Sequence record: PZ445428.1 | Strand: one strand, 5' to 3' | Origin: a phage | DNA length: 64,000 bases | Shown: positions 1,195 through 33,432 of the stretch, in pieces | Position numbering within the stretch: position 1 is the first letter of the stretch | How the letters are laid out: every line of letters begins with the position of its first letter | The notes under the pieces: model-generated | What the model was told of the DNA's origin: nothing | Databases searched by the model: none | The model's input: only the letters and a program-made list of their open reading frames with translations | Program-made: the position numbers and the translations under genes

Positions 1195-3069
1195 TTATTT
1201 AGCGCGAACGTCTCTATGTTTCACTCGACCCATAACCTCATGTTGTTTACCAGGGTTAAAAGGACGTGCTCCTGGGTTCCCAAGATAACCACAAACTCGA
1301 CGAGTTACCTCTAAAGTTTCAGGATCATGGTTTCCACAGATAGGACATTTGAATCCATCCTCAGAAGCGATAGTCTCACCCAAGAATCCACACTCACCAC
1401 AGGAATCTACGGGGGTATTAATACCGAAGTAATGAACCTTACTTGCAGCATAATTAATAACCCATTCCAATGCATCAGGGAATTTCTTCATATCAGGTAA
1501 TTCCACATAGGAAATGCACCCACCAGAAGCAATTGGGGTAAAGTTAGACTCATAATCAAACTTCACGTTTGGAGCAACCTTACGTTCCACATCAAGGTGA
1601 TGTGAGTTAGTATAGTATCCTTTACCAAGAATATCTTCATGCTCTGGGAAATATTCACGGTCTAGACGACAGAAGCGATCACATAGGGATTCAGAAGGCG
1701 TTGCATACAAACTGTACCCTAACTGAGTTTCTTCCTTCTTCTGATCTGCACGATCACGCATATATTGTAAAACACGCTGTACAAACTTAATGCAGGTGTC
1801 AGACATTGTATCTACATCCTTACCAAACATAAACTGTAACATTTCATGGCAGCCAATGTACCCTAGTGATACAGAAGCACGCTTGTAGAAATGATCAAAC
1901 ACATATTCATCGGGCCCCAGACGTAATCCAAAGGCTCCTGACATATAGAGGATGGGCGCAGCTTTAGCTTGAATGTATTTTAAGCGATCAACCCTCCACT
2001 CCAATGCTTTAAGTGCAGTATCAACACGCAGCTCAAGCAGATCGAAAAACAGATCAATATCTCCATCGGCTTCGATAGCGATTCGAGGAAGGTTTACAGA
2101 AACGACACCTAAGTTATTACGACCTGATGTTTCTCCATCTTCCGCAGCAGCTAAGAATGAGCGGCAGCCCATAGAAACTTTGTAGTCTCCAGTAACTTCA
2201 ACTACCTTATCATAGCTGATATAGTCAGGATACATACGTTCGGCAGTACACTTCATAGCTAACTTCTTGATATCGTAGTTTACATCACCAGGTTTCATAT
2301 TAACGCCATCACGAAGTACAAATACCAGTTTAGGGAAGATTGCAGTACGTTTATTGATACCCAGACCATCCATACGTACTTCTAGGATTGCTTTCTGTAC
2401 AAGACGAGCTTCCCAAGAAGTTCCTAAACCAAAGCCAAAGGTGATAAAAGGACTCTGACCATTAGAGTTGAACATCGTATTGATCTCATACTCTAGACCC
2501 TGACAGGCGTCGTAAACTTCTTTCTCAGTCATTTCCGTAGCCATTACAGATGCTTTGGCTTCGTCCTTAGTCCAACGCTTAGCGAACGCATGGTTCTTAT
2601 CATAAGATTTACGAACGTAAGGGGCTAATACTTCATCAAGACGGTCAACAGAAGTACCGCCATATTGATGGGAGCTAACCTGAGTAATAATCTGAGCTGT
2701 AATAGCAGCCGCAGTAGTGATAGAATTTGGCGTACTGATTTCAGCATTACCAACCTTCATACCATTCTTCAACATATCTTCCAAAGCAACGAGGCAACAG
2801 TTAGTCATACCTAAAGCTGCATAGTCAGCATCGTGGAAGTGAATATCACCAATCATATGAGCATTTCGAATCTGAATCGGCATTTCTTCTAGAATCAGAT
2901 ACTTACTCAACTCACCTGCTAGCATATCCCTTTGAGTAGGGAAGCGTTCTGAAGGTTTATTGGCGTTATTAAACAGCAGCTCTTCATCTGCTGAACCTTC
3001 GATAATTTCCTTGCAGTTTGTAATTAAAGACTGCATTCTTTTAATCTTCATCTGATCATTGTGATTCAT
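1195..3069 (-). CDS. nrdD: anaerobic ribonucleoside-triphosphate reductase (class III RNR)
   Basis: 624-aa ORF; C-terminal glycyl-radical motif RVCGYLG and CxxC zinc site (CGECGF...CPICG); AGGAGAAT RBS. Confidence 0.9.
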   Translation of the reverse strand: MNHNDQMKIKRMQSLITNCKEIIEGSADEELLFNNANKPSERFPTQRDMLAGELSKYLILEEMPIQIRNAHMIGDIHFHDADYAALGMTNCCLVALEDMLKNGMKVGNAEISTPNSITTAAAITAQIITQVSSHQYGGTSVDRLDEVLAPYVRKSYDKNHAFAKRWTKDEAKASVMATEMTEKEVYDACQGLEYEINTMFNSNGQSPFITFGFGLGTSWEARLVQKAILEVRMDGLGINKRTAIFPKLVFVLRDGVNMKPGDVNYDIKKLAMKCTAERMYPDYISYDKVVEVTGDYKVSMGCRSFLAAAEDGETSGRNNLGVVSVNLPRIAIEADGDIDLFFDLLELRVDTALKALEWRVDRLKYIQAKAAPILYMSGAFGLRLGPDEYVFDHFYKRASVSLGYIGCHEMLQFMFGKDVDTMSDTCIKFVQRVLQYMRDRADQKKEETQLGYSLYATPSESLCDRFCRLDREYFPEHEDILGKGYYTNSHHLDVERKVAPNVKFDYESNFTPIASGGCISYVELPDMKKFPDALEWVINYAASKVHYFGINTPVDSCGECGFLGETIASEDGFKCPICGNHDPETLEVTRRVCGYLGNPGARPFNPGKQHEVMGRVKHRDVRAK

Positions 3070-21707: not shown

Positions 21708-21712
21708 AAATA

Positions 21713-23880: not shown

Positions 23881-23894
23881 ATATTCATAAATTC

Positions 23895-23988: not shown

Positions 23989-23995
23989 AATTCAT

Positions 23996-24073: not shown

Positions 24074-24090
24074 ATTAACTAGGAGACTTT

Positions 24091-24617: not shown

Positions 24618-24625
24618 GATTACAT

Positions 24626-24702: not shown

Positions 24703-24719
24703 AATAAAAGGAAACTGAT

Positions 24720-24887: not shown

Positions 24888-25086
24888 TCCAGAAGTAGTT
24901 ACACAGCGTTTGCTGATTAAAGGTGTAGTAGCTGAAGCAGGTCTTACCGAAGCTGTTGCAGATTTTCAGGCACAGTTCACAGCTATTCTCACCCAAGCTA
25001 AAGAAACTGGTGCGGAGGAGTATGCTGCTGCAACTCTAGCGCTCACGTTAGCTGGACTTGATCTGGCAGAAGAAGCCGGAGTTTAA
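24880..25086 (+). CDS. hypothetical protein (68 aa)
   Basis: ORF track. Confidence 0.45.
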   Translation: MANPEVVTQRLLIKGVVAEAGLTEAVADFQAQFTAILTQAKETGAEEYAAATLALTLAGLDLAEEAGV

Positions 25087-25116
25087 CTCCTCCAAGCAGA
25101 AATTTTAAAAATGTAC

Positions 25117-25146
25117 TTGCTTTTTACTTAAGATTTCTGCTATAAT
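25117..25146 (+). promoter_or_regulatory. early promoter cassette (-35 TTGCTT, -10 TATAAT)
   Basis: Hexamers with 18-bp spacer. Confidence 0.55.
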
Positions 25147-25175
25147 AGTTATATAAATTGATGAGAGGAATCAGA

Positions 25176-25451
25176 ATGTCAAAACGTGTTACAGCAACTG
25201 GTATTGAAAGCTCAGTATGTAAATCCTGGGGTGGTTGGGAAGGTGAGATTGAATGGCTTTATTTCTACAATGTAGAACTTCTGCCTGAAATTAAAGCCCA
25301 CTGTATCGAAGCTGGTATGTCTCCTGATGCTAAAGCAGATATCGAAATTACTATGACTAAACTAGAAGGTCGTGTAATTACTGTTAGTGATGAAGGTGAA
25401 GAGGTCTTCGAACTTCCATTCACCTTGAAAGTCACTCCTTCGTTTGATTAA
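25176..25451 (+). CDS. hypothetical protein
   Basis: ORF track 25158..25451; start moved to ATG 25176 after GAGAGGAA. Confidence 0.5.
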   Translation: MSKRVTATGIESSVCKSWGGWEGEIEWLYFYNVELLPEIKAHCIEAGMSPDAKADIEITMTKLEGRVITVSDEGEEVFELPFTLKVTPSFD

Positions 25452-25460
25452 CTGATACAG

Positions 25461-25499
25461 CACTGAGCAAGTTCTTTAAAATTTGACTTGCTCAGTGCC
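25461..25499 (+). terminator. 13-bp inverted repeat hairpin overlapping the next promoter -35
   Basis: GCACTGAGCAAGT...ACTTGCTCAGTGC, perfect stem. Confidence 0.5.
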
Positions 25500-25516
25500 T
25501 TAAAACTTGATATAAT
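25488..25516 (+). promoter_or_regulatory. early promoter cassette upstream of tRNA cluster (-10 TATAAT)
   Basis: TTGCTC / TATAAT with 17-bp spacer; -35 lies in the 3' arm of the upstream hairpin. Confidence 0.5.
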
Positions 25517-25641
25517 AGTTATCTAATTTGGAAAACATATCTGAATGAGAAGTAACTAAGCGAGTTGCTTTGAGGGGTAAGGTCAGGATAGCCTGAAATA
25601 TTCCACCTTGAGTTTAACCGACTTACTTTTCATTCAAATAT

Positions 25642-25732
25642 GTTGGATTAGTATCGTAGAGGTAGCGAAGCAGACTGTAAATCTGCCGACTCGGAAGGGT
25701 CTCGGGTGGTTCGACTCCATCATCCAACACCA
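25642..25732 (+). tRNA. tRNA-Tyr (anticodon GTA)
   Basis: Acceptor GTTGGAT/ATCCAAC, anticodon loop CTGTAAA, long variable arm, T-loop TTCGACT, CCA. Confidence 0.75.
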
Positions 25733-25740
25733 AATTTAAT

Positions 25741-25815
25741 GCACCTATCGTCTATCGGTTAGGACATCAGGTTTTCAACCTGAGAAGCTCGGTTCGATTC
25801 CGTGTGGGTGTACCA
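25741..25815 (+). tRNA. tRNA-Glu (anticodon TTC)
   Basis: Acceptor GCACCTA/TGGGTGT, anticodon stem TCAGG/CCTGA loop TTTTCAA, T-loop TTCGATT, CCA. Confidence 0.6.
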
Positions 25816-25822
25816 AATTAAT

Positions 25823-25899
25823 GTTCTGCTAGACAAACAGGTAAAGTCCCTACCCTTTCAAGGTAGGGTTTGCGGGTTCGATCCCCGCACAGAACGCCA
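25823..25899 (+). tRNA. tRNA with TTC anticodon (second Glu-type)
   Basis: Acceptor GTTCTGC/ACAGAAC (one mismatch), anticodon stem CTACC/GGTAG loop CTTTCAA, T-arm GCGGG-TTCGATC-CCCGC, CCA. Confidence 0.55.
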
Positions 25900-25907
25900 T
25901 ATTCTGC

Positions 25908-25984
25908 ATTCCTAGAGTGTTACTGGACAGCATGTCGGTCTCCAAAACCGTACGGTCTAGGTTCGAGTCCTAGTAGGTTTGCCA
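25908..25984 (+). tRNA. tRNA-Trp candidate (anticodon CCA)
   Basis: Anticodon loop CTCCAAA, T-arm CTAGG-TTCGAGT-CCTAG, CCA encoded; acceptor stem has two T-T mismatches. Confidence 0.4.
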
Positions 25985-25990
25985 ATATTT

Positions 25991-26065
25991 GCACCTTTAG
26001 CTGAGATGGATTAGCGCTTGCCTGAAGAGCTTGAGAGGTTGGATCGTTACCAACGGGGTGCACCA
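25991..26065 (+). tRNA. tRNA candidate (anticodon GAA, Phe?)
   Basis: Perfect acceptor GCACCTT/GGGGTGC and D-arm; anticodon stem imperfect, loop CTGAAGA; atypical T-loop ATCGTTA; CCA. Confidence 0.45.
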
Positions 26066-26082
26066 ATTTGAAGGAGATGCTG

Positions 26083-26355
26083 ATGCATCCTGAAAACTTC
26101 TTTATATACTGTACTAGTCCTTTGCTTAAACGCCGGATTAATAAAGTATATCACTACAGAGCTAGTCAACAGCCTTATATTTATGATTCTAGTGGAGATC
26201 ACATTCCACTTGAGCAACTAGGGACTGATTATATGGTTTTGAAGCACTTTAATGAGGCAAAGATCTCAAGCGTTCATAACCGACAAAACTCTAAAACGTG
26301 GTGGTATAAGAAGCGTAAGAAAGGCATCAAATTTCTGAAAAATGTAGTTGCTTAA
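26083..26355 (+). CDS. hypothetical basic protein
   Basis: ORF track 26068..26355; start moved to ATG about 6 nt after AAGGAG. Confidence 0.45.
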   Translation: MHPENFFIYCTSPLLKRRINKVYHYRASQQPYIYDSSGDHIPLEQLGTDYMVLKHFNEAKISSVHNRQNSKTWWYKKRKKGIKFLKNVVA

Positions 26356-26376
26356 ATCCTTAAAGTTCTGTATAAT
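26348..26376 (+). promoter_or_regulatory. early promoter cassette (-35 TTGCTT, -10 TATAAT)
   Basis: Hexamers with 17-bp spacer; -35 overlaps upstream stop codon. Confidence 0.55.
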
Positions 26377-26404
26377 TATTACATAAATTGAACTGGAGAA
26401 CTAG

Positions 26405-26593
26405 ATGAAAGCACCTAAACCGAAATTAGTTAAGTTCGACTGCTGTGACACTGAAATCTTATTTACTAAGTTTGGTGAATTTAAGATGTGTGAATGTGGA
26501 ACATGTGGTTACGATCATGGTGATGGATATTATTGCAGAACCCTCGGGCCTTCTGAACTAATCCACTTCTCATGGCCGGAAAGTAAAGAATAA
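26405..26593 (+). CDS. small Cys-rich protein (62 aa)
   Basis: ORF track; CCDT...CECGTCGYDHGDGYYC. Confidence 0.45.
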   Translation: MKAPKPKLVKFDCCDTEILFTKFGEFKMCECGTCGYDHGDGYYCRTLGPSELIHFSWPESKE

Positions 26594-26595
26594 TA

Positions 26596-26671
26596 CGACC
26601 GTTGGCTGAATGGCTTAGGCGGGGGCCTGCAAAACCTCCTTATGTGAGTTCGAATCTCATGCGGTCGTCCA
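26596..26671 (+). tRNA. tRNA-Cys (anticodon GCA)
   Basis: Acceptor CGACCGT/GCGGTCG, anticodon loop CTGCAAA, T-loop TTCGAAT, CCA. Confidence 0.6.
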
Positions 26672-26678
26672 AATTTAT

Positions 26679-26761
26679 GGGTCGTTAGCCAAGCGGTTTG
26701 GCGGTGGACTGTTAATCCATGTCGAAAGACAACGTAGGTTCGAATCCTGCACGGCCCGCCA
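26679..26761 (+). tRNA. tRNA with GTT (Asn) anticodon and 13-nt variable arm
   Basis: Acceptor GGGTCGT/ACGGCCC, D-stem GCCA/TGGC, anticodon stem GTGGA/TCCAT loop CTGTTAA, variable hairpin GTC-GAAA-GAC, T-loop TTCGAAT, CCA. Confidence 0.55.
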
Positions 26762-26789
26762 TTTTTCACTAAAAACTGAGGAAATAGAT

Positions 26790-26975
26790 ATGACAACTCA
26801 TGCAATTGCTCGACTAGAAGCTGATCGCGATAGTATTAAGAACAATATTAAAGTTCGTGATCAAATCATTAAGGTTTTAAAGGCAGAACTGCTTGAAGAA
26901 CTTCAACATCAAGTAGATCGTCGTGAGTCTTTAAAAGAAGTCGAGGAAGCTCTGTCTAAACTCAAAGCTGAATAA
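26790..26975 (+). CDS. hypothetical coiled-coil protein (61 aa)
   Basis: ORF track. Confidence 0.45.
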   Translation: MTTHAIARLEADRDSIKNNIKVRDQIIKVLKAELLEELQHQVDRRESLKEVEEALSKLKAE

Positions 26976-26984
26976 ACAAATTAT

Positions 26985-27061
26985 GCGATCGGGGCTGGCT
27001 TGGTAATGGTACTCCCCTGTCACGGGAGAGAATGTGGGTTCGAATCCCATCGGTCGCGCCA
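26985..27061 (+). tRNA. tRNA-Asp (anticodon GTC)
   Basis: Acceptor GCGATCG/CGGTCGC, anticodon stem CTCCC/GGGAG loop CTGTCAC, T-loop TTCGAAT, CCA. Confidence 0.7.
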
Positions 27062-27067
27062 AATTAT

Positions 27068-27143
27068 ACATCCATAGCTCAATGGTTAGAGCTACCGCCT
27101 CTTAAGCGGAGGGTTCTAGGTTCAAGTCCTAGTGGGTGTACCA
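27068..27143 (+). tRNA. tRNA-Lys (anticodon CTT)
   Basis: Acceptor ACATCCA/TGGGTGT, D-arm GCTC..GAGC, anticodon loop CTCTTAA, T-loop TTCAAGT, CCA. Confidence 0.65.
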
Positions 27144-27149
27144 AATACT

Positions 27150-27237
27150 GGGGTCTTAGCTAATCGGTTAAGCGTCATGGATAGCGGTGAATTCCGGCCT
27201 ATGAAGGGAGTAACACGTAGTCTCCCAGACTCCACCA
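27150..27237 (+). ncRNA. tRNA-like element (88 nt) with canonical acceptor and D-arm but no canonical T-loop
   Basis: GGGGTCT...AGACTCC-A-CCA acceptor pairing; D-arm GCT-AATCGGTTA-AGC; remainder does not fold as standard cloverleaf. Confidence 0.3.
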
Positions 27238-27487
27238 AATTTCAGTGCAGAACACGGAGCTAGCAATTCGGAAGTGCTGACGCGCGATAAGCTGCCTATG
27301 TACTTGCAAAGCGGACGTGTCCTAGACTCGGACTCTTGCACTGAAACCAATTAAACATTCTAGCGTGGTGGAGAGGGGACACCAGCTTGCCGAGGGTAGA
27401 AGCTCGTTCGATTCGAGTGAAAGAATGGTTCTCGTAAATCCGCACAAGTGATAGTAGGTTCAAGTCCTGCCTAGATTGACTTATTAT

Positions 27488-27561
27488 GCGTCCATAGTTA
27501 AAAGGTATAATTTCTGGTTGCCAACCAGATGTTGAGAGTTCGATTCTCTCTGGCCGCACCA
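27488..27561 (+). tRNA. tRNA-Gly (anticodon GCC)
   Basis: Acceptor GCGTCCA/TGGCCGC (one mismatch), anticodon stem TCTGG/CCAGA loop TTGCCAA, T-arm GAGAG-TTCGATT-CTCTC, CCA. Confidence 0.65.
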
Positions 27562-27808
27562 AATTTAGGTTTATGCTTCCTAGAGAACGTACTCCTAAAT
27601 AAACAAGGCGATGAGTTTCCGGCCGGTTCTAGTCGCTGAAAATCCTCCCGACCAGGTAGGTGTAGGTAAACGAAAGTTTACTTATTAAGTAAGTCCGACA
27701 CATCGGCGGGTGTGTTCTAGTATTTAAAGAAGGTCTCGCAAACTTTCTCGCTAGCATGAGTTCATAGCTCGGTGACTTACCTAATAAGTAAATTTATTAA
27801 AAATGTAA

Positions 27809-27837
27809 TTGCTATTTAGCTTAATTCTCTGTATAAT
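27809..27837 (+). promoter_or_regulatory. early promoter cassette (-35 TTGCTA, -10 TATAAT)
   Basis: Hexamers with 17-bp spacer. Confidence 0.6.
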
Positions 27838-27869
27838 ATATTTTATAAAGTGATGAGAAGGAAAGCAAA

Positions 27870-28028
27870 GTGAAATTAAAAATTGCAGATGTACTTATGT
27901 GTACTTGGGTAATTCCAATCATAATTGTTGGTTTTAACGCAGATATACTTTCCACAGCGTGGAAGATTGTAGGGCTAAGTACAGGGTTCACAATGCTAGG
28001 GTTAAGCATGTTGTGGACGAAAAACTAA
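27870..28028 (+). CDS. small hydrophobic protein (52 aa), GTG start
   Basis: Hand-translated ORF after cassette RBS GAAGGAAAG; below track cutoff. Confidence 0.3.
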   Translation: MKLKIADVLMCTWVIPIIIVGFNADILSTAWKIVGLSTGFTMLGLSMLWTKN

Positions 28029-28032
28029 TATT

Positions 28033-28109
28033 CTCCGATTAGCTCAATTGGCTAGAGTACACCGTTTGGGGTGGTGGGGTTGAAGGTTCGAGTCCTTCAT
28101 TGGAGACCA
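28033..28109 (+). tRNA. tRNA-Pro (anticodon TGG)
   Basis: Acceptor CTCCGAT/ATTGGAG, anticodon stem CACCG/TGGTG loop TTTGGGG, T-arm GAAGG-TTCGAGT-CCTTC, CCA. Confidence 0.6.
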
Positions 28110-28124
28110 AATAAGAGGTTAATA

Positions 28125-28277
28125 ATGCGTCATTTAAATAGGCAAAAAACAAAAGCACCTAAAAGGTTTAAGACTTGGTGCGGTTGTGATAGAGAACTCG
28201 TTTCTCTAGGAGAGAAATGTTCTGTTTGTGGTGTACGCTTTGTTAAGTTCAAACAAAGATTTAAATTTGCGAGTTAG
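28125..28277 (+). CDS. small zinc-ribbon protein (50 aa)
   Basis: ORF track 28071..28277 trimmed to ATG after AAGAGG (track 5' part overlaps tRNA-Pro); CGCD...CSVCG. Confidence 0.4.
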   Translation: MRHLNRQKTKAPKRFKTWCGCDRELVSLGEKCSVCGVRFVKFKQRFKFAS

Positions 28278-28345
28278 ATCTCTGGTAGAGATCACTAGTC
28301 TCATAAGCTAGTAAGAGGTCGGTTCGATTCCGACACTCGCATCCA
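28268..28345 (+). tRNA. tRNA with CAT anticodon (Met/fMet/Ile2 class)
   Basis: Acceptor TGCGAGT/ACTCGCA, D-stem GATC/GATC, anticodon stem CTAGT/GCTAG loop CTCATAA, T-loop TTCGATT, CCA. Confidence 0.65.
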
Positions 28346-28356
28346 AAAAGTATTAA

Positions 28357-28434
28357 GGGTTGCTAGCTCAACTGGTTTAGAGCACTGGTCTTTTAAACCA
28401 TAGGTTACAGGTTCGAGTCCTGTGCAACCCACCA
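28357..28434 (+). tRNA. tRNA-Lys (anticodon TTT)
   Basis: Acceptor GGGTTGC/GCAACCC, anticodon loop CTTTTAA, T-arm ACAGG-TTCGAGT-CCTGT, CCA. Confidence 0.7.
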
Positions 28435-28438
28435 AATT

Positions 28439-28512
28439 GCTCGGTTAGTTTAATGGGAGAACCCCGTCTTTACACGGCGGTTGCGATAGTTCGATTCTAT
28501 CACCGAGTACCA
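28439..28512 (+). tRNA. tRNA-Val (anticodon TAC)
   Basis: Acceptor GCTCGGT/ACCGAGT, anticodon stem CCGTC/GGCGG loop TTTACAC, T-arm GATAG-TTCGATT-CTATC, CCA. Confidence 0.65.
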
Positions 28513-28536
28513 CTTAACTAAAATAAGGAATTGCAA

Positions 28537-28896
28537 ATGCAATTATCATCTAAAGTTCAAGGTTTCTTCACACATGCAACAGCAGAATTTGCTATTAGCA
28601 AGGGTTGGGACTTTGAGCAAGAACTTTCTGAGTTCTATAAAGATATAGATATGAATACACCATACATGGCCTTAGCTTCTGGACAAGAGTTCTCAGAAGG
28701 TGATCTTTTCAAGGCAAGTCAAGGCGAGGTAACGCCTGGTTTTGCCGCTTTTTGGAGTGGCTTCACAATTAAAGAAGAAGCTCCAGATGATGATGTATTT
28801 ATGCAAAGCATGCACTCTGGGAGTTCTGATATGTTATTCGTTAAAGATGTACGACATATCCAAGAAGTGGTAAAAACGTATTTGCAAAATGCTTAA
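28537..28896 (+). CDS. hypothetical protein (119 aa)
   Basis: ORF track 28531..28896; start moved to ATG after TAAGGAA. Confidence 0.55.
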   Translation: MQLSSKVQGFFTHATAEFAISKGWDFEQELSEFYKDIDMNTPYMALASGQEFSEGDLFKASQGEVTPGFAAFWSGFTIKEEAPDDDVFMQSMHSGSSDMLFVKDVRHIQEVVKTYLQNA

Positions 28897-28910
28897 TTTC
28901 TTGTTATAAT
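28882..28910 (+). promoter_or_regulatory. early promoter cassette (-35 TTGCAA, -10 TATAAT) driving ORF-free leader plus tRNAs
   Basis: Hexamers with 17-bp spacer; -35 overlaps upstream stop. Confidence 0.55.
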
Positions 28911-29150
28911 ATTTATATAAATTGATGGGGAGAAATCCTCATCAAAGTTCACTAAGGTATTAGCTCGACCTAGGACTGGCTGCCACCAAGCACGATCCCT
29001 ACGACTCGGGAGAAGTTCTAGATTAGTCCACTAGATTCAGCGGCAACTGAATAGTGTATCGGGTTTGTGAAGAGCGGGTATCCAAGCCTGGCTAATGGCA
29101 CTGGGTATTACGCACACCGAGCTAATAGCCTTAGTAAACTTGAAGAATTT

Positions 29151-29225
29151 GGGCGAATAGTGTCAGCGGGAGCACACCAGACTTGCAATCTGGTAGGGAG
29201 GGTTCGAGTCCCTCTTTGTCCACCA
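29151..29225 (+). tRNA. tRNA-Ala (anticodon TGC)
   Basis: Acceptor GGGCGAA/TTTGTCC, anticodon stem CCAGA/TCTGG loop CTTGCAA, T-arm GAGGG-TTCGAGT-CCCTC, CCA. Confidence 0.65.
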
Positions 29226-29231
29226 AATTTT

Positions 29232-29307
29232 GGGGTCATAGGTTATTTGGTTAAACTTACTGCCTTGCAAGCAGTAGAACTCAGTTCAATTCTGAGTGAC
29301 TCCACCA
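29232..29307 (+). tRNA. tRNA with TGC anticodon (second Ala-type)
   Basis: Acceptor GGGGTCA/TGACTCC, anticodon stem ACTGC/GCAGT loop CTTGCAA, T-arm CTCAG-TTCAATT-CTGAG, CCA. Confidence 0.6.
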
Positions 29308-29326
29308 AACAAATTAAGGAAATAAT

Positions 29327-29545
29327 ATGGTATTCTTAGCAGCCTCTGTAGTTCTTGCATCTTTAGCGTTAGCTATCTATTTTAGAACTGCTAAAGATTT
29401 ATCTAAAGAAAAGAAAACTTTCTTTACTGATTACTCTTGGGGTGCTCCATACGCTATCAATTCTATCAGTCTAGAAGCTATGTTGATAATGGTATTCAGT
29501 GGTATAGGTTCTATCGTTGCTGGATTACTTTTTATTTCTAACTAA
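29327..29545 (+). CDS. small membrane protein (72 aa)
   Basis: ORF track; two hydrophobic helices. Confidence 0.45.
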   Translation: MVFLAASVVLASLALAIYFRTAKDLSKEKKTFFTDYSWGAPYAINSISLEAMLIMVFSGIGSIVAGLLFISN

Positions 29546-29552
29546 ACAAAAT

Positions 29553-29633
29553 GGGGATGTGGCGAAATTGGCAGACGCGCTAGATTTAGGTTCTAGTCTT
29601 CGGGTGTGGGTTCGAGTCCCTCCATCCCTACCA
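29553..29633 (+). tRNA. tRNA-Leu (anticodon TAG)
   Basis: Acceptor GGGGATG/CATCCCT, Leu-type D-loop GAAATTGGCAGAC, anticodon stem CTAGA/TCTAG loop TTTAGGT, extended variable region, T-loop TTCGAGT, CCA. Confidence 0.65.
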
Positions 29634-29653
29634 TTTTAAAATAGGATTAATTA

Positions 29654-29818
29654 ATGTTAAAGATGCCAGTAAAACATATTTGGTTAGCTAGAAATAGGGC
29701 TACTAATGAATTTGTCTTTATTGATACAGGAATGACATATGATCAACGAATATATGATCTTCTGTATTCCGTGTCTGCTGAAGAAGTACACAAATTAATT
29801 CTAAAAGATGCAACATAA
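29654..29818 (+). CDS. hypothetical protein (54 aa)
   Basis: Hand-translated ORF between two tRNAs; weak RBS; below track cutoff. Confidence 0.3.
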   Translation: MLKMPVKHIWLARNRATNEFVFIDTGMTYDQRIYDLLYSVSAEEVHKLILKDAT

Positions 29819-29820
29819 TT

Positions 29821-29913
29821 GGAAGAGCAAATCGACTTGGTGACGAAAACCGCTTGGAAAGTGGCTGACTTGTGAAAGCAGGCTTGAGAGTTCGAATCTC
29901 TCTTCTTCCGCCA
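29821..29913 (+). tRNA. tRNA-Ser (anticodon GGA)
   Basis: Acceptor GGAAGAG/TTCTTCC, 3-bp D-stem, anticodon loop TTGGAAA, long variable arm, T-arm GAGAG-TTCGAAT-CTCTC, CCA. Confidence 0.65.
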
Positions 29914-29920
29914 AACAATT

Positions 29921-30010
29921 GGAAGTACGGGCGTAGTGGTATGCAACTAGTCTTGAAAACTAGCCCGCTGTAGCGATATGGTGATGGTTCGACTCCATGT
30001 GCTTCCGCCA
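29921..30010 (+). tRNA. tRNA-Ser (anticodon TGA)
   Basis: Acceptor GGAAGTA/TGCTTCC, anticodon stem CTAGT/ACTAG loop CTTGAAA, long variable arm, T-loop TTCGACT, CCA. Confidence 0.7.
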
Positions 30011-30016
30011 AATCTT

Positions 30017-30145
30017 GGAATATGCCGGAATTGGTAGACGGGACTGCCGAATAGGTTTACTAGGAACATCCACTCCTAGAAATATACCTTAAAAGCGGTT
30101 GAGTTAAATGGTCTAACTCGTGAAGGTTCAAGTCCTTCTATTCCT
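30017..30145 (+). tRNA. oversized tRNA-Leu(TAA)-like gene (~129 nt) with ~40-nt insertion in anticodon arm; possible intron-containing or disrupted tRNA
   Basis: Acceptor GGAATA/TATTCC, Leu-type D-arm CCG-GAATTGGTAGA-CGG, T-arm GAAGG-TTCAAGT-CCTTC, variable hairpin GAGTTA...TAACTC, anticodon stem ACTGC/GCGGT enclosing CTTAAAA loop plus inserted hairpin CTAGGA...TCCTAG; no CCA. Confidence 0.35.
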
Positions 30146-30395
30146 TGATACATCAATGGCTCAAAGAGTAACGGTGCACCTTTCTAGAGAATTTCCTGGG
30201 CGAGAATCCAGGTGTAATCAACTAGTCGTTAGTGTGATGAGTTTCGGAGAGCCGCCACAATTGAAGATCATTGTCTGTTTGAGTCTACCATTTAGGGTCG
30301 TTACTTGTAGCGCCTATCTGCTAGGTCTAATCACTAGGTAAAGGCATGCAAGCTTCTAGTGTAGAGAGTTCGCTACTCCTCGATGGTTTTCAATT

Positions 30396-30472
30396 GTGGC
30401 TATATCATAATTGGTTAATGATCCTGATTGTGAATCAGGCCTATGTGGATTCGAGTTCCACTAGCCACCCCA
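30396..30472 (+). tRNA. tRNA-His (anticodon GTG)
   Basis: Acceptor GTGGCTA/TAGCCAC, anticodon stem CCTGA/TCAGG loop TTGTGAA, T-arm GTGGA-TTCGAGT-TCCAC, CCA. Confidence 0.75.
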
Positions 30473-30478
30473 AATATT

Positions 30479-30553
30479 GCGTCCTTATTTCAACGGAAAG
30501 AATGTAAAGCTACGAACTTTACGATCGGGGTTCGATTCCCTGAGGATGCACCA
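30479..30553 (+). tRNA. tRNA-Arg (anticodon ACG)
   Basis: Acceptor GCGTCCT/AGGATGC, anticodon stem TAAAG/CTTTA loop CTACGAA, T-loop TTCGATT, CCA. Confidence 0.7.
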
Positions 30554-30577
30554 ATTAACTTAAACAGGAAAATAATA

Positions 30578-30778
30578 ATGGCTGATTTCTGTAAAGAATG
30601 CTCTATCGATATGTGGGGCAAAGATACACAAGATCTTTCTGGTCTTATCACTGAAGCTGAAGTTAAAGAAGGCTATGGTGCTGTAGTAATCTGCGAAGGT
30701 TGTGGTATTATCCGTGTTGATCATGAAGGCAAACGCCTTGAAGAACCTGAGCCAATCGCAACGGTTCCTGTAGAGTAA
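30578..30778 (+). CDS. small zinc-ribbon protein (66 aa)
   Basis: ORF track 30443..30778 trimmed to ATG after AGGAAAATAATA (5' part of track ORF overlaps two tRNAs); CKEC...CEGCG. Confidence 0.5.
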   Translation: MADFCKECSIDMWGKDTQDLSGLITEAEVKEGYGAVVICEGCGIIRVDHEGKRLEEPEPIATVPVE

Positions 30779-30786
30779 CAAATTAT

Positions 30787-30862
30787 TGGGATGTAGATCA
30801 ATTGGCAGATCGTCGGCCTCTGACTCCGAAGGTTCCTGGTTCGATCCCAGGCATCCCAGCCA
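30787..30862 (+). tRNA. tRNA-Gln (anticodon CTG)
   Basis: T1-A72 acceptor TGGGATG/CATCCCA (Gln-like), anticodon loop CTCTGAC, T-arm CCTGG-TTCGATC-CCAGG, CCA. Confidence 0.65.
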
Positions 30863-30868
30863 AACAAT

Positions 30869-30944
30869 TGGAGAATAGTGTAGTGGTTCGCACAACGGCC
30901 TTTGACTCCGTTAGTGGTAGGTTCAATTCCTCCTTCTCCTGCCA
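30869..30944 (+). tRNA. tRNA-Gln (anticodon TTG)
   Basis: Acceptor (T)GGAGAA/TTCTCC(T), anticodon loop CTTTGAC, T-loop TTCAATT, CCA. Confidence 0.6.
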
Positions 30945-30950
30945 ATTTAT

Positions 30951-31025
30951 GCGTGATTAGTTCAGTGGCTAGAATAACTGGCTTCCAACCAGTAGACACG
31001 AGTTCGACTCTCGTATCCCGCACCA
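30951..31025 (+). tRNA. tRNA-Gly (anticodon TCC)
   Basis: Acceptor GCGTGAT/ATCCCGC, anticodon stem ACTGG/CCAGT loop CTTCCAA, T-arm ACGAG-TTCGACT-CTCGT, CCA. Confidence 0.7.
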
Positions 31026-31039
31026 AATAAGGAAACGTT

Positions 31040-31261
31040 ATGCACGTTTTTGAGTTTCGTAATAAAAGCCCCAATAGACGCGTTTTGATTATTGGTGAAA
31101 CATATCGAGCTTACGAGCAAGAAGATGGTTCAGTTTTACTAAACGATGAAAAGCAAGGTTATAGCTTTCATCCAGAAGAAACGTATGAAGAGTTTCGTAC
31201 TAAGTTTCTTTTACCAGACTGGCTAGCAGTAGCCGAGCAACGAGAATCCGAAGATGGCTGA
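31040..31261 (+). CDS. hypothetical protein (73 aa)
   Basis: ORF track; AAGGAAA RBS. Confidence 0.5.
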   Translation: MHVFEFRNKSPNRRVLIIGETYRAYEQEDGSVLLNDEKQGYSFHPEETYEEFRTKFLLPDWLAVAEQRESEDG

Positions 31262-31427
31262 TAACCTGAAACTAAAGGTTGACAAACAGAAGAAACGTGT
31301 AGAGATTGAGCTTGGTGACGAACGCCTAGCACTATCCTTCGAGTTTCTTCAGCAGTTGGCGATGACAGTAATGTCTGATAAGTCTCCTGTATTTGAAAAA
31401 GAAATCCCGTTGAAATGACGGGTTTAT

Positions 31428-31502
31428 TGCTCCTAAAGCATTGCTGGCGATGCAGTTGCCTTGTAAGCATCTGAACCGGGTTCGATTCCTGGTGGGAGCA
31501 CC
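31428..31502 (+). tRNA. tRNA-Thr (anticodon TGT)
   Basis: Acceptor GCTCCTA/TGGGAGC, D-stem GCAT/ATGC, anticodon loop CTTGTAA, T-arm CCGGG-TTCGATT-CCTGG, CCA. Confidence 0.65.
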
Positions 31503-31517
31503 AAATTTAAAAATTCA

Positions 31518-31546
31518 TTTGCCTTCTCTCTTATTTCTTGTTATAA
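31518..31546 (+). promoter_or_regulatory. early promoter cassette (-35 TTGCCT, -10 TATAAT)
   Basis: Hexamers with 17-bp spacer. Confidence 0.55.
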
Positions 31547-31577
31547 TATTTATATAAATTAATGAGAGGGAAACCAA

Positions 31578-31871
31578 ATGAAACGTTATCTTTCTGTCGT
31601 GTTCCAAACTGGTGGTCAGCGTTATACCTACGAATTTCCAGAGTCTTGGAAAATCAAAGAAGGTGATCAGGTTGTTGTACTGACACCGCGTGAAGGCTTC
31701 AAAGTGGTTACGGTTAAACAAGTATTTCCTAAAGATCACGAACCATCTAAATCTATTAATTATAAGATGATTCATGGTCTGGTACGAAAAGTACCACGGA
31801 CGGAAGTTGAAGTAGATAAAGATGGTGAAGCTAAATACCAGTATACTTCTTACCTAGACGAGATGCGATAA
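31578..31871 (+). CDS. hypothetical protein (97 aa)
   Basis: ORF track; cassette RBS GAGAGGGAA. Confidence 0.55.
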   Translation: MKRYLSVVFQTGGQRYTYEFPESWKIKEGDQVVVLTPREGFKVVTVKQVFPKDHEPSKSINYKMIHGLVRKVPRTEVEVDKDGEAKYQYTSYLDEMR

Positions 31872-32095
31872 TGAGAATTACCTTTACTGAGAAGATAATA
31901 TGTAATGGGATTATGATCATTACAGCGTGGGAAGGTAAACAATGGTGCAGTATAACGGGTCTTAAAGCAGAAGATCAAACACCAGAAAACATTCTCAAAA
32001 TAAAACAAAACATGGCAAAACATGCTAAACGTCCTGGTGCTCCTAGGAATGGCATACGTTTTGCAGCAAAATGCTCCGATAGTTCAAACGGTTAG
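31871..32095 (+). CDS. hypothetical protein (74 aa)
   Basis: ORF track; 3' end overlaps tRNA-Ile by about 20 nt, so the call is uncertain. Confidence 0.35.
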   Translation: MRITFTEKIICNGIMIITAWEGKQWCSITGLKAEDQTPENILKIKQNMAKHAKRPGAPRNGIRFAAKCSDSSNG

Positions 32096-32148
32096 AACAG
32101 GCGACCGATAATCGTCAAATCTTGGTTCGATCCCAAGTTGGAGTACCA
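32073..32148 (+). tRNA. tRNA-Ile (anticodon GAT)
   Basis: Acceptor GCTCCGA/TTGGAGT, anticodon stem GGCGA/TCGTC loop CCGATAA, T-arm CTTGG-TTCGATC-CCAAG, CCA. Confidence 0.65.
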
Positions 32149-32192
32149 AAACAACGGAGAGTCACTACCGTAAGTGTGAAGTTGAAAAATAT

Positions 32193-32268
32193 AGTTAGTT
32201 GGCAGATCGGTTATGCACCTCCTTCATACGGAGCGATCAGAGTGGTTCGATTCCACTACTAACTACCA
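32193..32268 (+). tRNA. tRNA with CAT anticodon (Met/fMet/Ile2 class)
   Basis: Acceptor AGTTAGT/ACTAACT, anticodon loop TTCATAC, T-arm AGTGG-TTCGATT-CCACT, CCA. Confidence 0.6.
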
Positions 32269-32637
32269 AACAGAAGATCAGGCCATAGTGCCAGATCCTG
32301 CTGAGAAGAGAGTCCACATTCTATAAATGGACGGGCGTGACAGCAGGAAGTAGACTGCAACTCGATGCTATCTAAGAGTATAAATGTAGAAGCTAAGACT
32401 TTAGATAGTCATTGTCTTAGCGTGAGTAATCACGTAGTTGCAACAGACCAGGAAGATCGCAACGTTAAAATCAAAGCTCCTGTGCTTTTCTTCTTAATCG
32501 AGACCATCAATCTCACCGGAATGCTAGCACCCCAACAGTAGCTAGTGATTAAGAGAAAAGCAAACCTGCCTTCCAGTTTTTATCTTGCTTCTGGGTTATC
32601 AAAAAGCTGAGCCAATTTCTAACATCAGGGAGATCTA

Positions 32638-33006
32638 ATGAAAGCATATCAAAGTCTTAAATCCGGCGTAATTAACCTTGTTCATGACAATCAGATCATT
32701 CAGCTATACTCTAAAGACGGCGAACTTAAACAGAAAGTTCTAGTTGAAGATCTAGAAGGTATCACACCTCACTTTGATCCTGAAGCCTTCCGCATCGTGG
32801 ATGTTAAAGTAGTTCCTCAAGTCGAGGGTGGTCAACACCTAAATGTCAACGTATTAAGTCGTGATCAGCTTTTGGATGCTCAGAAACATCCTGAAAAATA
32901 TCCTCAGTTGACCATTCGTGTCTCTGGTTATGCTGTTCGATTTAATGCACTGACGCGTGAACAACAGAACGACGTTATTAGTCGTACATTTACTCAGGCG
33001 ATCTAA
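32638..33006 (+). CDS. grcA: autonomous glycyl-radical cofactor (GrcA/YfiD-like)
   Basis: 122-aa ORF ending [11 protein letters not shown]...[36 protein letters not shown], nearly collinear with E. coli YfiD glycyl-radical domain (RVSGY motif). Confidence 0.8.
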
Positions 33007-33087
33007 TGGGGTTTGGATACGATTTCTCCCAGCTACGCAAGGTAGTCGAGCAAACTCCATTTATCTCCGAAGTTTTAGGAGAACTTA

Positions 33088-33387
33088 GTGGACAGAGCAT
33101 TAAGACGTCACCACCGTCAACGTGTCAAGAACAATCGCAAGAAGTATTGGACAGTCTTCCCTCATGAAGAAAGTCCTAAACGGTTAGGTATTATTACTAC
33201 CACTCCTTGTATTTGCTCTTGCTGGATGTGTGGCAACCCACGCAAATACTATAAAAATAGTAAAGCAGCAATGAAAATCTCGGAGATTAAAAAGATGGAT
33301 TCAGGATATAATGAAATCACGTTTACAGGTGGTATCTCTGATGAGTTCGATGGTTTTGTATCACAAGACGTTATCGAAATTATCTAA
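33088..33387 (+). CDS. hypothetical basic Cys-rich protein (99 aa), GTG start
   Basis: ORF track; AGGAG RBS. Confidence 0.45.
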   Translation: MDRALRRHHRQRVKNNRKKYWTVFPHEESPKRLGIITTTPCICSCWMCGNPRKYYKNSKAAMKISEIKKMDSGYNEITFTGGISDEFDGFVSQDVIEII

Positions 33388-33396: not shown

Positions 33397-33432
33397 AAAC
33401 CCCGGCTATTGAATAAGTAGTTGGGGTTTTCT
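33397..33432 (+). terminator. rho-independent terminator
   Basis: AAACCCCGGCTA...TAGTTGGGGTTT hairpin followed by TTCTTAT. Confidence 0.5.

What the first reader, a model, noticed from the sequence alone, without database searches (positions are those of the whole stretch)
32638..33006. Phage-encoded GrcA/YfiD-like spare glycyl-radical domain alongside phage NrdD
The C-terminal 60 residues are nearly collinear with E. coli YfiD ([11 protein letters not shown]...[29 protein letters not shown]). The same genome encodes a glycyl-radical class III RNR (nrdD, 1195-3069) but no visible NrdG activase in this window. The small protein could repair oxygen-cleaved host PFL or act with the phage NrdD.
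Basis: partly seen in the sequence, partly recalled or inferred. Interest (0 to 1): 0.55.

Follow-up and report, generated by a model that had tools for sequence, protein, structure and literature searches.

The report
Phage copy of GrcA spare part
This T5-like coliphage gene encodes a small "spare part" protein, a relative of E. coli GrcA/YfiD and phage T4 Y06I, that most likely restores the host's oxygen-damaged pyruvate formate-lyase; this protein family is already known and was tested biochemically in T4, so the finding is correct but ordinary.

Summary
Window 32638-33006 (+) is an intact 122-aa ORF, bas27_0140 of Escherichia phage TrudiGerster (T5-like, Epseptimavirus).

- **Glycyl-radical domain.** Residues 61-122 match E. 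coli TdcE at 52/62 positions, GrcA at 49/62 and PflB at 47/62. The PFL-activase recognition heptapeptide RVSGYAV is exact, and Gly97 is invariant in 123/123 homologues.
- **N-terminal half.** It has diverged strongly but links to GrcA through the T4-like phage proteins in profile-profile comparison.
- **Selection.** Both halves are under purifying selection (dN/dS 0.03-0.18 for the whole gene).
- **Structure.** The closest solved structure is YfiD (6OWR).
- **Best explanation (inferred).** Host PflA installs a radical on Gly97, and the protein then docks on O2-cleaved host PFL/TdcE and restores its activity, as shown in vitro for T4 Y06I. This function was not tested here.
- **NrdD link.** A direct role with phage NrdD is not supported. 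NrdD has its own complete RVCGY domain and zinc site, and the small protein is PFL-type. An indirect link is plausible, because PFL makes formate, the reductant of class III RNRs of this type.
- **No activase.** No NrdG- or PflA-like gene exists anywhere in the 114-kb genome.
- **Small new detail.** All T5-like copies carry the TdcE-type tail signature (A104, R107, S115, Q120, A121).

Verdict: a known family and low interest.

The parts
32638..33006 (+). CDS of the GrcA/YfiD-like autonomous glycyl radical cofactor (122 aa plus stop). It is bas27_0140, named 'putative formate acetyltransferase' in the record.
   Evidence: ORF list and sequence; record annotation; Pfam, PDB, NCBIfam and PHROG hits; dN/dS 0.03-0.18 among six T5-like orthologues.
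32638..32817 (+). N-terminal half (aa 1-60). This is the diverged GrcA-type region thought to help docking on cleaved PFL and activation. It carries a 6-aa insertion (YSKDGE, aa 24-29) relative to most homologues.
   Evidence: hhalign of the T5-like N-terminal profile against the T4-like/jumbo-phage profile gives probability 92.5%, E 4.9e-7. The T4-like profile against the bacterial GrcA profile gives 97.4%, E 9e-12. The direct T5-like versus bacterial comparison gives only 11%. dN/dS is 0.05-0.23. AF2 predicts five beta strands at pLDDT about 86. The role of the YfiD N-terminus is taken from PMC8683613.
32818..33003 (+). Glycyl radical domain (aa 61-122), collinear with the C-terminal 62 residues of PflB, TdcE and GrcA.
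   Evidence: 52/62 identical to E. coli TdcE, 49/62 to GrcA, 47/62 to PflB and 47/62 to T4 Vs.6. Foldseek top hits are 6owr (YfiD), 2pfl and 1cm5. 32 columns are invariant in a 59-sequence alignment.
32917..32937 (+). RVSGYAV heptapeptide (aa 94-100). The Gly97 codon GGT at 32926-32928 is the predicted radical site.
   Evidence: Read directly from the sequence. R94, V95, S96, G97, Y98 and A99 are invariant in 123/123 homologues and V100 in 122/123.
32627..32633 (+). Shine-Dalgarno-like AGGGAGA, 4 nt before the ATG.
   Evidence: Sequence; conserved as (A/T/G)GGGAGA or CAGGAGA in five related phages.
31519..31547 (+). Sigma-70-like promoter candidate (TTGCCT-17-TATAAT with extended TG). It could drive the unit containing tRNA-Ile, tRNA-Met, small ORFs and the grcA-like gene.
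   Evidence: Consensus scan only, 10/12 matches. Not evidence of function.
33397..33429 (+). Intrinsic-terminator-like hairpin (14-bp stem) downstream of the grcA-like gene and the next small ORF(s).
   Evidence: Consensus scan.
1195..3069 (-). Phage nrdD (class III anaerobic RNR, 624 aa). It is a context gene and only indirectly linked, as a consumer of PFL-derived formate (inference).
   Evidence: Pfam NRDD 574.5 bits plus Gly_radical 80.9 bits. It is 53% identical to E. coli NrdD and retains the equivalents of C175, M382, C384, the four zinc-site cysteines and G681.

Best explanation
[quoted passage not shown] The proposed mechanism has four steps.

1. The gene is expressed with the early tRNA/nucleotide-metabolism region.
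2. The host pyruvate formate-lyase activating enzyme PflA, a radical-SAM enzyme, recognises the exact RVSGYAV loop and abstracts a hydrogen from Gly97. The phage encodes no activase of its own.
3. The protein docks on host formate-lyase (PflB and/or its paralogue TdcE) whose own C-terminal radical domain has been cut off by O2 at Gly734, and it supplies the radical to Cys419 in trans. The N-terminal half aids docking.
4. This keeps pyruvate -> acetyl-CoA + formate running in a micro-oxic infected cell that, I assume, no longer makes its own GrcA.

The likely benefit is continued ATP supply (via acetyl-CoA/acetate) and formate. Formate is the reductant used by class III ribonucleotide reductases of the E. 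coli/T4 type, which the phage also encodes.

Shown here: the identity and integrity of the domain, conservation of the radical glycine, purifying selection, absence of a phage activase, and completeness of the phage NrdD. Inferred: activation by PflA, rescue of cleaved PFL/TdcE, and the physiological benefit.
For: - **Domain identity.** Pfam Gly_radical scores 66.3 bits. The best solved relatives are YfiD 6owr (5.7e-29) and PFL (1.7e-26). The AF2 model's top Foldseek hits are 6owr, 2pfl and 1cm5.
- **Similarity to formate-lyases.** 47-52 of 62 positions are identical to PflB, GrcA and TdcE.
- **Radical site.** Residues R94-A99 of the RVSGYAV motif, including Gly97, are invariant in 123/123 homologues and V100 in 122/123.
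- **Phage family.** The protein matches PHROG 1209 over its full length. It has relatives in 1584 phage records, including T4 vs.6, which RefSeq names GrcA.
- **N-terminal half.** It is linked to GrcA through the T4-like proteins by hhalign.
- **Selection.** dN/dS is 0.03-0.18 for the whole gene, and both halves are constrained.
- **Biochemical precedent.** T4 Y06I and YfiD are activated by PFL-AE and restore O2-cleaved PFL. The YfiD N-terminal half promotes binding and activation (PMC8683613; PMC13450708).
- **No phage activase.** None is found by tblastn, phmmer, Pfam or annotation.
- **Host targets.** All 5426 complete E. coli genomes carry matching loci, median three per genome; only tdcE hits were listed, and K-12 has pflB, tdcE and grcA.
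- **Formate link.** Formate is the hydrogen donor of the E. coli class III RNR (Mulliez 1995, cited in PMC4493059). The phage NrdD keeps the Met-Gly-Cys loop of that type.
Against: - No experiment exists on any T5-like copy.
- The protein scores below the curated NCBIfam GrcA cutoff (118 against 170 bits). However, the validated T4 Y06I also fails it (151 bits).
- The N-terminal half is not detectably similar to E. coli GrcA in a direct comparison (hhalign probability 11%).
- AF2 predicts the N-terminal half as folded, whereas the YfiD N-terminus is disordered in solution (against PMC8683613). Docking may therefore differ.
- The formate/NrdD benefit is purely inferential.
Confidence: 0.8

Rival explanations
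1. The T5-like protein is a spare part tuned to TdcE (2-ketobutyrate/pyruvate formate-lyase 4) rather than, or in addition to, PflB. It would then be a spare part for a second glycyl radical enzyme.
For: The five variable tail positions 104/107/115/120/121 read A-R-S-Q-A, exactly as in E. coli TdcE (PflB reads SKTQS, GrcA reads SPAES). All 32 T5-like homologues are closest to TdcE, against 1 of 78 other GrcA-like proteins. Among the closest C-terminal-domain hits, ARSQA occurs only in fragments whose upstream sequence matches the TdcE C-terminus (DGYFHHEADVEGG). The best E. coli DNA match is tdcE, 76.6% over 184 nt. The signature is kept in both Epseptimavirus and Tequintavirus under strong purifying selection.
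Against: The substitutions are conservative (S/A, K/R, T/S). The first half of the domain (L73, K83, H84, Q90) is GrcA/PflB-like rather than TdcE-like. Nucleotide identity to tdcE is barely higher than to pflB or grcA (75% against 72%), so the pattern may reflect old ancestry or chance convergence. PflB is the abundant enzyme, and TdcE itself has PFL activity, so specificity may be irrelevant. No contact analysis could be done.
Confidence: 0.12
2. The protein works directly with the phage class III RNR, either as a spare radical domain for O2-cleaved NrdD or as a radical relay that compensates for the missing NrdG.
For: It is encoded in the same genome as nrdD, and the genome lacks nrdG. GrcA-like genes also occur in other phage lineages that carry nrdD/nrdG, namely T4 and a 352-kb jumbo phage.
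Against: Its best local alignment with NrdD covers 31 residues (11 identical) for E. coli NrdD and 15 residues (6 identical) for the phage NrdD, against 47-52 of 62 for the formate-lyases. It has RVSGYAV, not the RRVCGYLG of NrdD, and lacks the zinc-site cysteines that precede the NrdD glycine loop. Phage NrdD is complete, with its own Gly594. A glycyl radical protein cannot replace a radical-SAM activase. The gene lies about 30 kb from nrdD in a different transcription unit.
Confidence: 0.03
3. The protein is an antagonist or decoy. It would soak up host PflA or occupy PFL to shut down or redirect host fermentation rather than to repair it.
For: Phages often encode mimics of host proteins. 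The N-terminal half differs greatly from host GrcA.
Against: Every residue of the radical loop, and 32 columns of the domain, are invariant with catalytically competent relatives. The T4 homologue restores PFL activity rather than blocking it (PMC8683613). A decoy would not need the radical glycine kept under such strict constraint (C-terminal-half dN/dS mostly at or below 0.02).
Confidence: 0.04
4. The gene is a decaying fragment of a captured formate-lyase gene with no function. The record calls it 'putative formate acetyltransferase'.
For: It corresponds to only the last 8% or so of a 760-aa enzyme.
Against: The ORF is intact in about 440 T5-like records at 87% identity or more. It has a conserved Shine-Dalgarno sequence and dN/dS well below 1 in both halves. 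The N-terminal half is homologous to those of other phage GrcA proteins.
Confidence: 0.01

Closest known systems
Bacteriophage T4 Vs.6 / Y06I (autonomous glycyl radical cofactor; validated by Wagner et al. 2001 BBRC 285:456, as summarised in PMC8683613)
   Same: It has the same architecture and size (120 against 122 aa) and the same MKAYQ start. The N-terminal halves are homologous (hhalign probability 92.5% between the T5-like and T4-like/jumbo profiles). The RVSGYAV radical loop is identical. Both are encoded by a virulent coliphage that also carries nrdD.
   Different: Overall identity is only about 51%. The last 180 nt of the T4 gene are 176/180 identical to E. coli grcA, indicating a recent exchange with the host. 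The T5-like domain is at most 75-77% identical in DNA to any E. coli gene and carries a TdcE-type tail. T4 also encodes its own NrdG, and TrudiGerster does not.
E. coli GrcA/YfiD (PDB 6OWR; TIGR04365)
   Same: It is a standalone protein of about 14 kDa with a C-terminal glycyl radical domain (49/62 identical). It is the top sequence and fold match in the PDB. The YfiD N-terminal half of about 60 aa is not needed for catalysis but promotes binding and activation (PMC8683613), and the phage protein has a region of the same length.
   Different: The N-terminal half is not directly alignable (hhalign probability 11%). The protein scores 118 bits against the 170-bit equivalog cutoff, whereas E. coli GrcA scores 234. 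It has a 6-aa insertion at residues 24-29. AF2 predicts the N-terminal half as a beta unit rather than as disordered.
C-terminal glycyl radical domain of E. coli TdcE and PflB (formate C-acetyltransferases)
   Same: 52/62 (TdcE) and 47/62 (PflB) positions are identical and collinear to the last residue. The tail signature ARSQA is identical to TdcE.
   Different: It lacks the roughly 700-aa ten-stranded barrel with the catalytic Cys418/Cys419, so it cannot be a formate acetyltransferase by itself. The product name in the GenBank record is therefore a misnomer.
Short GrcA2/GrcA3 spare-part proteins (about 80 aa; NF008341, NF038360) of Firmicutes and Actinobacteria
   Same: The radical domain is 73-86% identical.
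   Different: Those proteins lack the 60-aa N-terminal half. The phage protein scores below both curated cutoffs (116 against 158 bits, and 90 against 145 bits).

Membership tests
GrcA/YfiD-type autonomous glycyl radical cofactor (spare part for PFL) | Small standalone protein (about 120-130 aa) without the formate-lyase catalytic barrel | tested here: met
   The ORF encodes 122 aa. The match to full-length PFL models covers only their last 60 or so positions.
GrcA/YfiD-type autonomous glycyl radical cofactor (spare part for PFL) | C-terminal glycyl radical domain (Pfam PF01228) above the gathering score | tested here: met
   66.3 bits against a cutoff of 22.2, covering aa 62-103.
GrcA/YfiD-type autonomous glycyl radical cofactor (spare part for PFL) | Radical glycine within the PFL-type loop RVSGYAV | tested here: met
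   The motif is exact at aa 94-100. Gly97 is invariant in 123/123 homologues.
GrcA/YfiD-type autonomous glycyl radical cofactor (spare part for PFL) | Radical domain near-identical and collinear to the C-terminus of the formate-lyase it replaces | tested here: met
   52/62 identical to TdcE, 47/62 to PflB and 49/62 to GrcA, ungapped to the C-terminal residue.
GrcA/YfiD-type autonomous glycyl radical cofactor (spare part for PFL) | GrcA-type N-terminal half (about 60 aa) | tested here: inconclusive
   It is homologous to the T4-like/jumbo-phage N-terminal halves (probability 92.5%, E 4.9e-7), and those are homologous to bacterial GrcA (97.4%, E 9e-12). The direct comparison gives only 11%. A single-sequence search of 1.8 billion representatives found nothing informative.
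GrcA/YfiD-type autonomous glycyl radical cofactor (spare part for PFL) | Score above the curated NCBIfam equivalog cutoff (TIGR04365, 170 bits) | tested here: not met
   The score is 118.4 bits. Calibration: E. coli GrcA scores 234, the validated T4 Y06I scores 151, and two jumbo-phage copies score 136-137. The cutoff therefore excludes all phage members tested, including the biochemically proven one.
GrcA/YfiD-type autonomous glycyl radical cofactor (spare part for PFL) | Fold of the radical domain as in YfiD/PFL | tested here: met
   The AF2 model has mean pLDDT 76.7. The Foldseek PDB top hits are 6owr (E 1.1e-5), 2pfl and 1cm5.
GrcA/YfiD-type autonomous glycyl radical cofactor (spare part for PFL) | Radical installed by PFL-activating enzyme, and activity restored to O2-cleaved PFL | not testable with these tools
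   This has been shown only for E. coli YfiD and T4 Y06I (PMC8683613; PMC13450708).
Class III RNR (NrdD) glycyl radical domain / NrdD accessory | RxCGY loop preceded by a four-cysteine zinc site; similarity to the NrdD C-terminus | tested here: not met
   The loop is RVSGYAV and the protein contains no cysteine. Only 11/31 and 6/15 residues are identical in the best local alignments to E. coli and phage NrdD.
Formate C-acetyltransferase (PflB/TdcE), the product name given in the GenBank record | Full barrel of about 760 aa with the catalytic Cys-Cys pair; TIGR01255 cutoff 994 bits | tested here: not met
   The score is 84.4 bits, matching profile positions 683-743 only.
Glycyl-radical activating enzymes (NrdG/PflA, radical SAM) encoded by the phage | A CxxxCxxC radical-SAM protein homologous to NrdG or PflA anywhere in the genome | tested here: not met
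   tblastn and phmmer with E. coli NrdG, T4 NrdG and E. coli PflA against all 114 kb give a best tblastn E of 0.11 and a best phmmer E of 0.016. The only CxxxCxxC motif lies in a 99-aa ORF with no Pfam hit. None is annotated.

The most novel reading that the evidence does not exclude
The T5-like clade (Epseptimavirus and Tequintavirus) carries a spare part whose post-glycine tail is TdcE-type at all five diagnostic positions. Its phage-specific N-terminal half is predicted to be folded. It may therefore be matched to TdcE, or serve both TdcE and PflB. That would make it the first spare part shown for a glycyl radical enzyme other than PflB. It may be kept by the phage to secure formate for its NrdG-less, host-activated class III RNR during micro-oxic infection.
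Probability: 0.12. Interest if true: 0.4.

Novelty: already known. Interest (0 to 1): 0.18.

Why it matters
The gene illustrates how virulent enterobacterial phages carry auxiliary genes that keep host anaerobic energy and formate metabolism working when oxygen intrudes, a likely condition in the gut. It adds nothing conceptually beyond T4 Y06I (2001). The practical points are modest.

- The GenBank product name 'putative formate acetyltransferase' is a misnomer.
- The curated GrcA model cutoff misses every phage member tested here, including the validated one.
- The TdcE-type tail of the T5-like clade gives a cheap, testable handle on a question the 2026 glycyl-radical-enzyme review calls open: whether spare parts serve enzymes other than PflB.

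Tried and rejected
1. **Hidden activase.** I ran tblastn and phmmer --max with E. coli NrdG, T4 NrdG and E. coli PflA against the whole genome, plus a CxxxCxxC scan.
   - The best tblastn hit had E = 0.11.
   - The best phmmer hit (E = 0.016) was a 22-aa patch (9/22 identical) in the 93-aa ORF just downstream of nrdD. That ORF has no Pfam hit and no cysteine motif.
   - The single CxxxCxxC motif sits in a 99-aa ORF next to the grcA-like gene. That ORF is too short for a radical-SAM enzyme, has no Pfam hit and matches phrog_4499 of unknown function.
   - All of these were rejected as activases.
2. **N-terminal search.** An exhaustive phmmer search with the N-terminal 60 aa against 1.8 billion representatives found only a 46-aa fragment and one spurious hit, so it was uninformative. 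Profile-profile comparison was needed instead.
3. **C-terminal search.** A search with the C-terminal 62 aa alone was meant to rank full-length PFL, TdcE and GrcA proteins. The list was dominated by short fragments and GrcA3 proteins. It was useful only for the signature count.
4. **Bacterial relatives.** A scan of 185,579 species-representative genomes found no bacterial full-length relative of the T5-like form and no near-identical donor.
5. **Recent capture from E. coli.** This was rejected for the T5-like gene (72-75% nt identity). It holds for the 3' half of T4 vs.6.
6. **Literature.** A search for T5-like phages together with pyruvate formate-lyase found nothing.

Full report
**What is there**

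The window is 100% identical to Escherichia phage TrudiGerster (MZ501108.1; Demerecviridae, Markadamsvirinae, Epseptimavirus; a T5-like phage isolated on E. coli K-12). Window position equals record position minus 50661. The window runs across the end of the linear record at window 63518/63519.

The ORF at 32638-33006 (+) starts with ATG, encodes 122 aa and ends in TAA. It is bas27_0140, annotated 'putative formate acetyltransferase'. An AGGGAGA Shine-Dalgarno sequence lies 4 nt upstream and is conserved in five relatives.

The gene sits at the end of the large tRNA array. It follows tRNA-Ile, tRNA-Met and a 58-aa ORF, between a promoter-like site at 31519-31547 and a terminator-like hairpin at 33397-33429. 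Both of those sites are consensus matches only.

**Is the similarity real?**

Yes.
- Pfam Gly_radical scores 66.3 bits against a gathering score of 22.2.
- phmmer against all PDB chains gives E. coli GrcA/YfiD (6owr) at 5.7e-29 and pyruvate formate-lyase at 1.7e-26. Weaker hits cover the other glycyl radical enzymes.
- The last 62 residues align without gaps to the very C-termini of E. coli TdcE (52/62 identical), GrcA (49/62), PflB (47/62) and T4 Vs.6 (47/62).
- An AlphaFold2 model built on a 59-sequence alignment (mean pLDDT 76.7) finds 6owr, 2pfl and 1cm5 as its only significant Foldseek hits in the PDB.

In a MAFFT alignment of the query, 120 database homologues, T4 Vs.6 and E. coli GrcA, residues R94-A99 (including Gly97) are invariant in 123/123 sequences and V100 in 122/123. 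Another 25 or so positions of the domain are also invariant. The glycine is conserved, so the finding is not refuted.

**Is the whole protein a GrcA, or a PFL tail fused to something else?**

NCBIfam's GrcA equivalog (TIGR04365) matches only aa 54-121 and scores 118 bits, below its cutoff of 170. I calibrated this. E. coli GrcA scores 234 bits. The biochemically validated T4 Y06I scores only 151, and two jumbo-phage copies score 136-137. The cutoff therefore excludes all phage members tested and is not informative here.

PHROG 1209 covers the protein end to end (9e-47). Profile-profile comparison of the N-terminal halves alone gave three results:
- T5-like against T4-like/jumbo-phage: probability 92.5%, E 4.9e-7, over the full length.
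- T4-like/jumbo-phage against bacterial GrcA: probability 97.4%, E 9e-12.
- T5-like against bacterial GrcA directly: probability 11%.

The N-terminal half is thus a strongly diverged GrcA N-terminus, linked by transitivity. It carries a 6-aa insertion at residues 24-29.

**Is it a working gene?**

Among six T5-like orthologues from two genera, dN/dS is 0.03-0.18 for the whole gene and 0.05-0.23 for codons 1-60. For codons 61-122 it is at or below 0.02 in most pairs, with a maximum of 0.16. tblastn finds the protein in 1584 phage records:
- about 440 T5-like records at 87% identity or more;
- about 1000 T4-like and other large enterobacterial and Aeromonas phage records at about 51-57% identity.

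Several sister phages already annotate it as 'glycyl radical cofactor'. One record notes similarity to T5p055 of T5.

**What is known about the family**

According to Andorfer et al. 2021 (PMC8683613) and a 2026 review (PMC13450708):
- E. coli YfiD/GrcA and T4 Y06I are the only validated 'spare part' proteins.
- PFL-activating enzyme installs the glycyl radical on them, and they restore activity to PFL cleaved by O2 at Gly734.
- YfiD residues 1-60 are disordered in solution. They are dispensable for catalysis but promote binding to cleaved PFL and radical installation.
- Whether spare parts exist for glycyl radical enzymes other than PFL is still open.

T4 vs.6 is Y06I and is named GrcA in RefSeq.

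**Mechanism proposed**

Every step below is inferred by homology.
1. Host PflA abstracts a hydrogen from Gly97 in the exact RVSGYAV loop.
2. The protein docks on O2-cleaved host formate-lyase and passes the radical to Cys419.
3. Pyruvate cleavage resumes.

I assume, from general knowledge of T5 biology rather than from anything tested here, that an infected cell no longer makes new host GrcA. A phage-encoded copy then makes sense.

**Relation to nrdD and the missing nrdG**

The ORF at 1195-3069 is on the minus strand and is a complete class III RNR (Pfam NRDD 574 bits plus its own Gly_radical domain). It is 53% identical to E. coli NrdD. It retains the equivalents of C175, M382, C384, the four zinc-site cysteines and G681, as C91, M300, C302, C557/C560/C575/C578 and G594.

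The small protein aligns with NrdD only locally: 11/31 identical with E. coli NrdD and 6/15 with the phage NrdD. It contains no cysteine. A direct spare-part or relay role for NrdD is therefore not supported.

No NrdG- or PflA-like gene exists anywhere in the 114-kb genome.
- None is annotated.
- The best tblastn hit has E = 0.11 and the best phmmer hit has E = 0.016.
- Pfam finds nothing in the candidate ORFs.

T4, by contrast, has nrdG next to nrdD. NrdG homologues occur in 2280 phage records, but no E. coli or Salmonella T5-like phage of about 110 kb appeared in the sampled list. Both radical proteins of this phage must therefore rely on host activases: NrdG for NrdD and PflA for the GrcA-like protein. 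This is an inference.

An indirect link is plausible. Formate, the product of PFL, is the hydrogen donor of the E. coli class III RNR (Mulliez 1995, cited in PMC4493059). The phage enzyme keeps the Met-Gly-Cys loop of that type.

**A small new detail**

At the five variable tail positions 104/107/115/120/121 the protein reads A-R-S-Q-A. This is identical to E. coli TdcE; PflB reads SKTQS and GrcA reads SPAES.
- All 32 T5-like homologues are closest to TdcE, against 1 of 78 other GrcA-like proteins.
- Among the most similar C-terminal domains in the 5.8-billion-protein database, ARSQA occurs only in fragments whose upstream sequence matches the TdcE C-terminus.
- The best E. coli DNA hit is tdcE, at 76.6% over 184 nt.
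- Nucleotide identity over the 180 nt encoding the last 60 residues is only 75% to tdcE, against 72% to pflB and grcA. This is therefore not a recent capture.
- The first half of the domain is more GrcA/PflB-like.

I treat 'tuned to TdcE' as a low-probability variant reading.

**Contrast with T4**

The last 180 nt of T4 vs.6 are 176/180 identical to E. coli grcA, with 58/60 third codon positions identical. Identity collapses to 97/202 aligned columns immediately upstream. That is a sharp mosaic boundary at the start of the radical domain. It indicates a recent exchange with the host gene.

**Verdict**

The NrdD partnership is not supported, except indirectly through formate. The family, its presence in phages and its mechanism are already known, and sister phages already carry the correct annotation. 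Interest is low. The TdcE-type tail and the predicted folded N-terminal half are minor leads.

Noticed in passing
L004 7558-7920 (-) (T4 vs.6) compared with L006 4067-4450 (-) (E. coli K-12 grcA): T4 vs.6/Y06I is a mosaic. Its last 180 nt are 176/180 identical to E. coli grcA (58/60 third codon positions). Identity drops to 97/202 aligned columns immediately upstream, with the break about 182 nt from the 3' end, at the start of the glycyl radical domain. This suggests recent gene conversion with the host gene.
   Followed up: partly
window 1195-3069 (-) and the whole record MZ501108.1: The phage carries a complete class III RNR gene (nrdD) but no nrdG or other radical-SAM activase anywhere in its 114 kb. 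It presumably depends on host NrdG. NrdG is common in T4-like, FelixO1-like and rV5-like phages and in vibriophages, but it did not appear in T5-like coliphages in the sampled list.
   Followed up: partly
window 814-1095 (-): The 93-aa ORF bas27_0055, directly downstream of nrdD, shares a 22-aa patch (9/22 identical) with E. coli NrdG residues 87-108 (phmmer E 0.016 within the genome). It has no cysteine motif and no Pfam hit, and it matches phrog_7953 of unknown function. It may be chance or a degraded nrdG remnant.
   Followed up: partly
window 33006-33387 (+): There is an annotation conflict just downstream of the grcA-like gene. The record has two 53-aa ORFs (33006-33167 and 33226-33387). 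Relatives annotate one 99-aa ORF with a GTG start (33088-33387), an AGGAGA Shine-Dalgarno sequence and a CxCxCxxC motif (TPCICSCWMCGNPRK), matching phrog_4499. Across six phages, the 99-aa frame is the better conserved one in the overlap. This ORF holds the only CxxxCxxC motif in the genome, but at 99 aa it is too short to be a radical-SAM enzyme.
   Followed up: partly
window 32638-32817 (+): AlphaFold2 predicts the N-terminal 55 or so residues as a five-stranded beta unit at pLDDT about 86. The equivalent region of E. coli YfiD is reported as disordered by NMR. No PDB fold match was found for this part (PMC8683613).
   Followed up: no
window 63518/63519: The window continues from the last base of the linear GenBank record (114179) into its first base, so it was cut from a circularised copy of the genome.
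   Followed up: yes
window about 17960-32270 (+): There is a dense array of about 30 annotated tRNA genes interspersed with many ORFs of 55-120 aa of unknown function. The grcA-like gene lies at its downstream edge.
   Followed up: no
window 1-394 (-), 22069-23803 (+), 6980-7498 (+): Several other auxiliary genes are annotated in the record: a Sir2-like protein (cut by the window start), a putative NMN adenylyltransferase next to an NMN transporter, and a homing endonuclease inserted between nrdA and nrdB.
   Followed up: no
NCBIfam TIGR04365: The curated GrcA equivalog cutoff (170 bits) is failed by all four phage GrcA-like proteins tested, including the biochemically validated T4 Y06I (151 bits). 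Automated annotation by this model alone would therefore miss them.
   Followed up: yes
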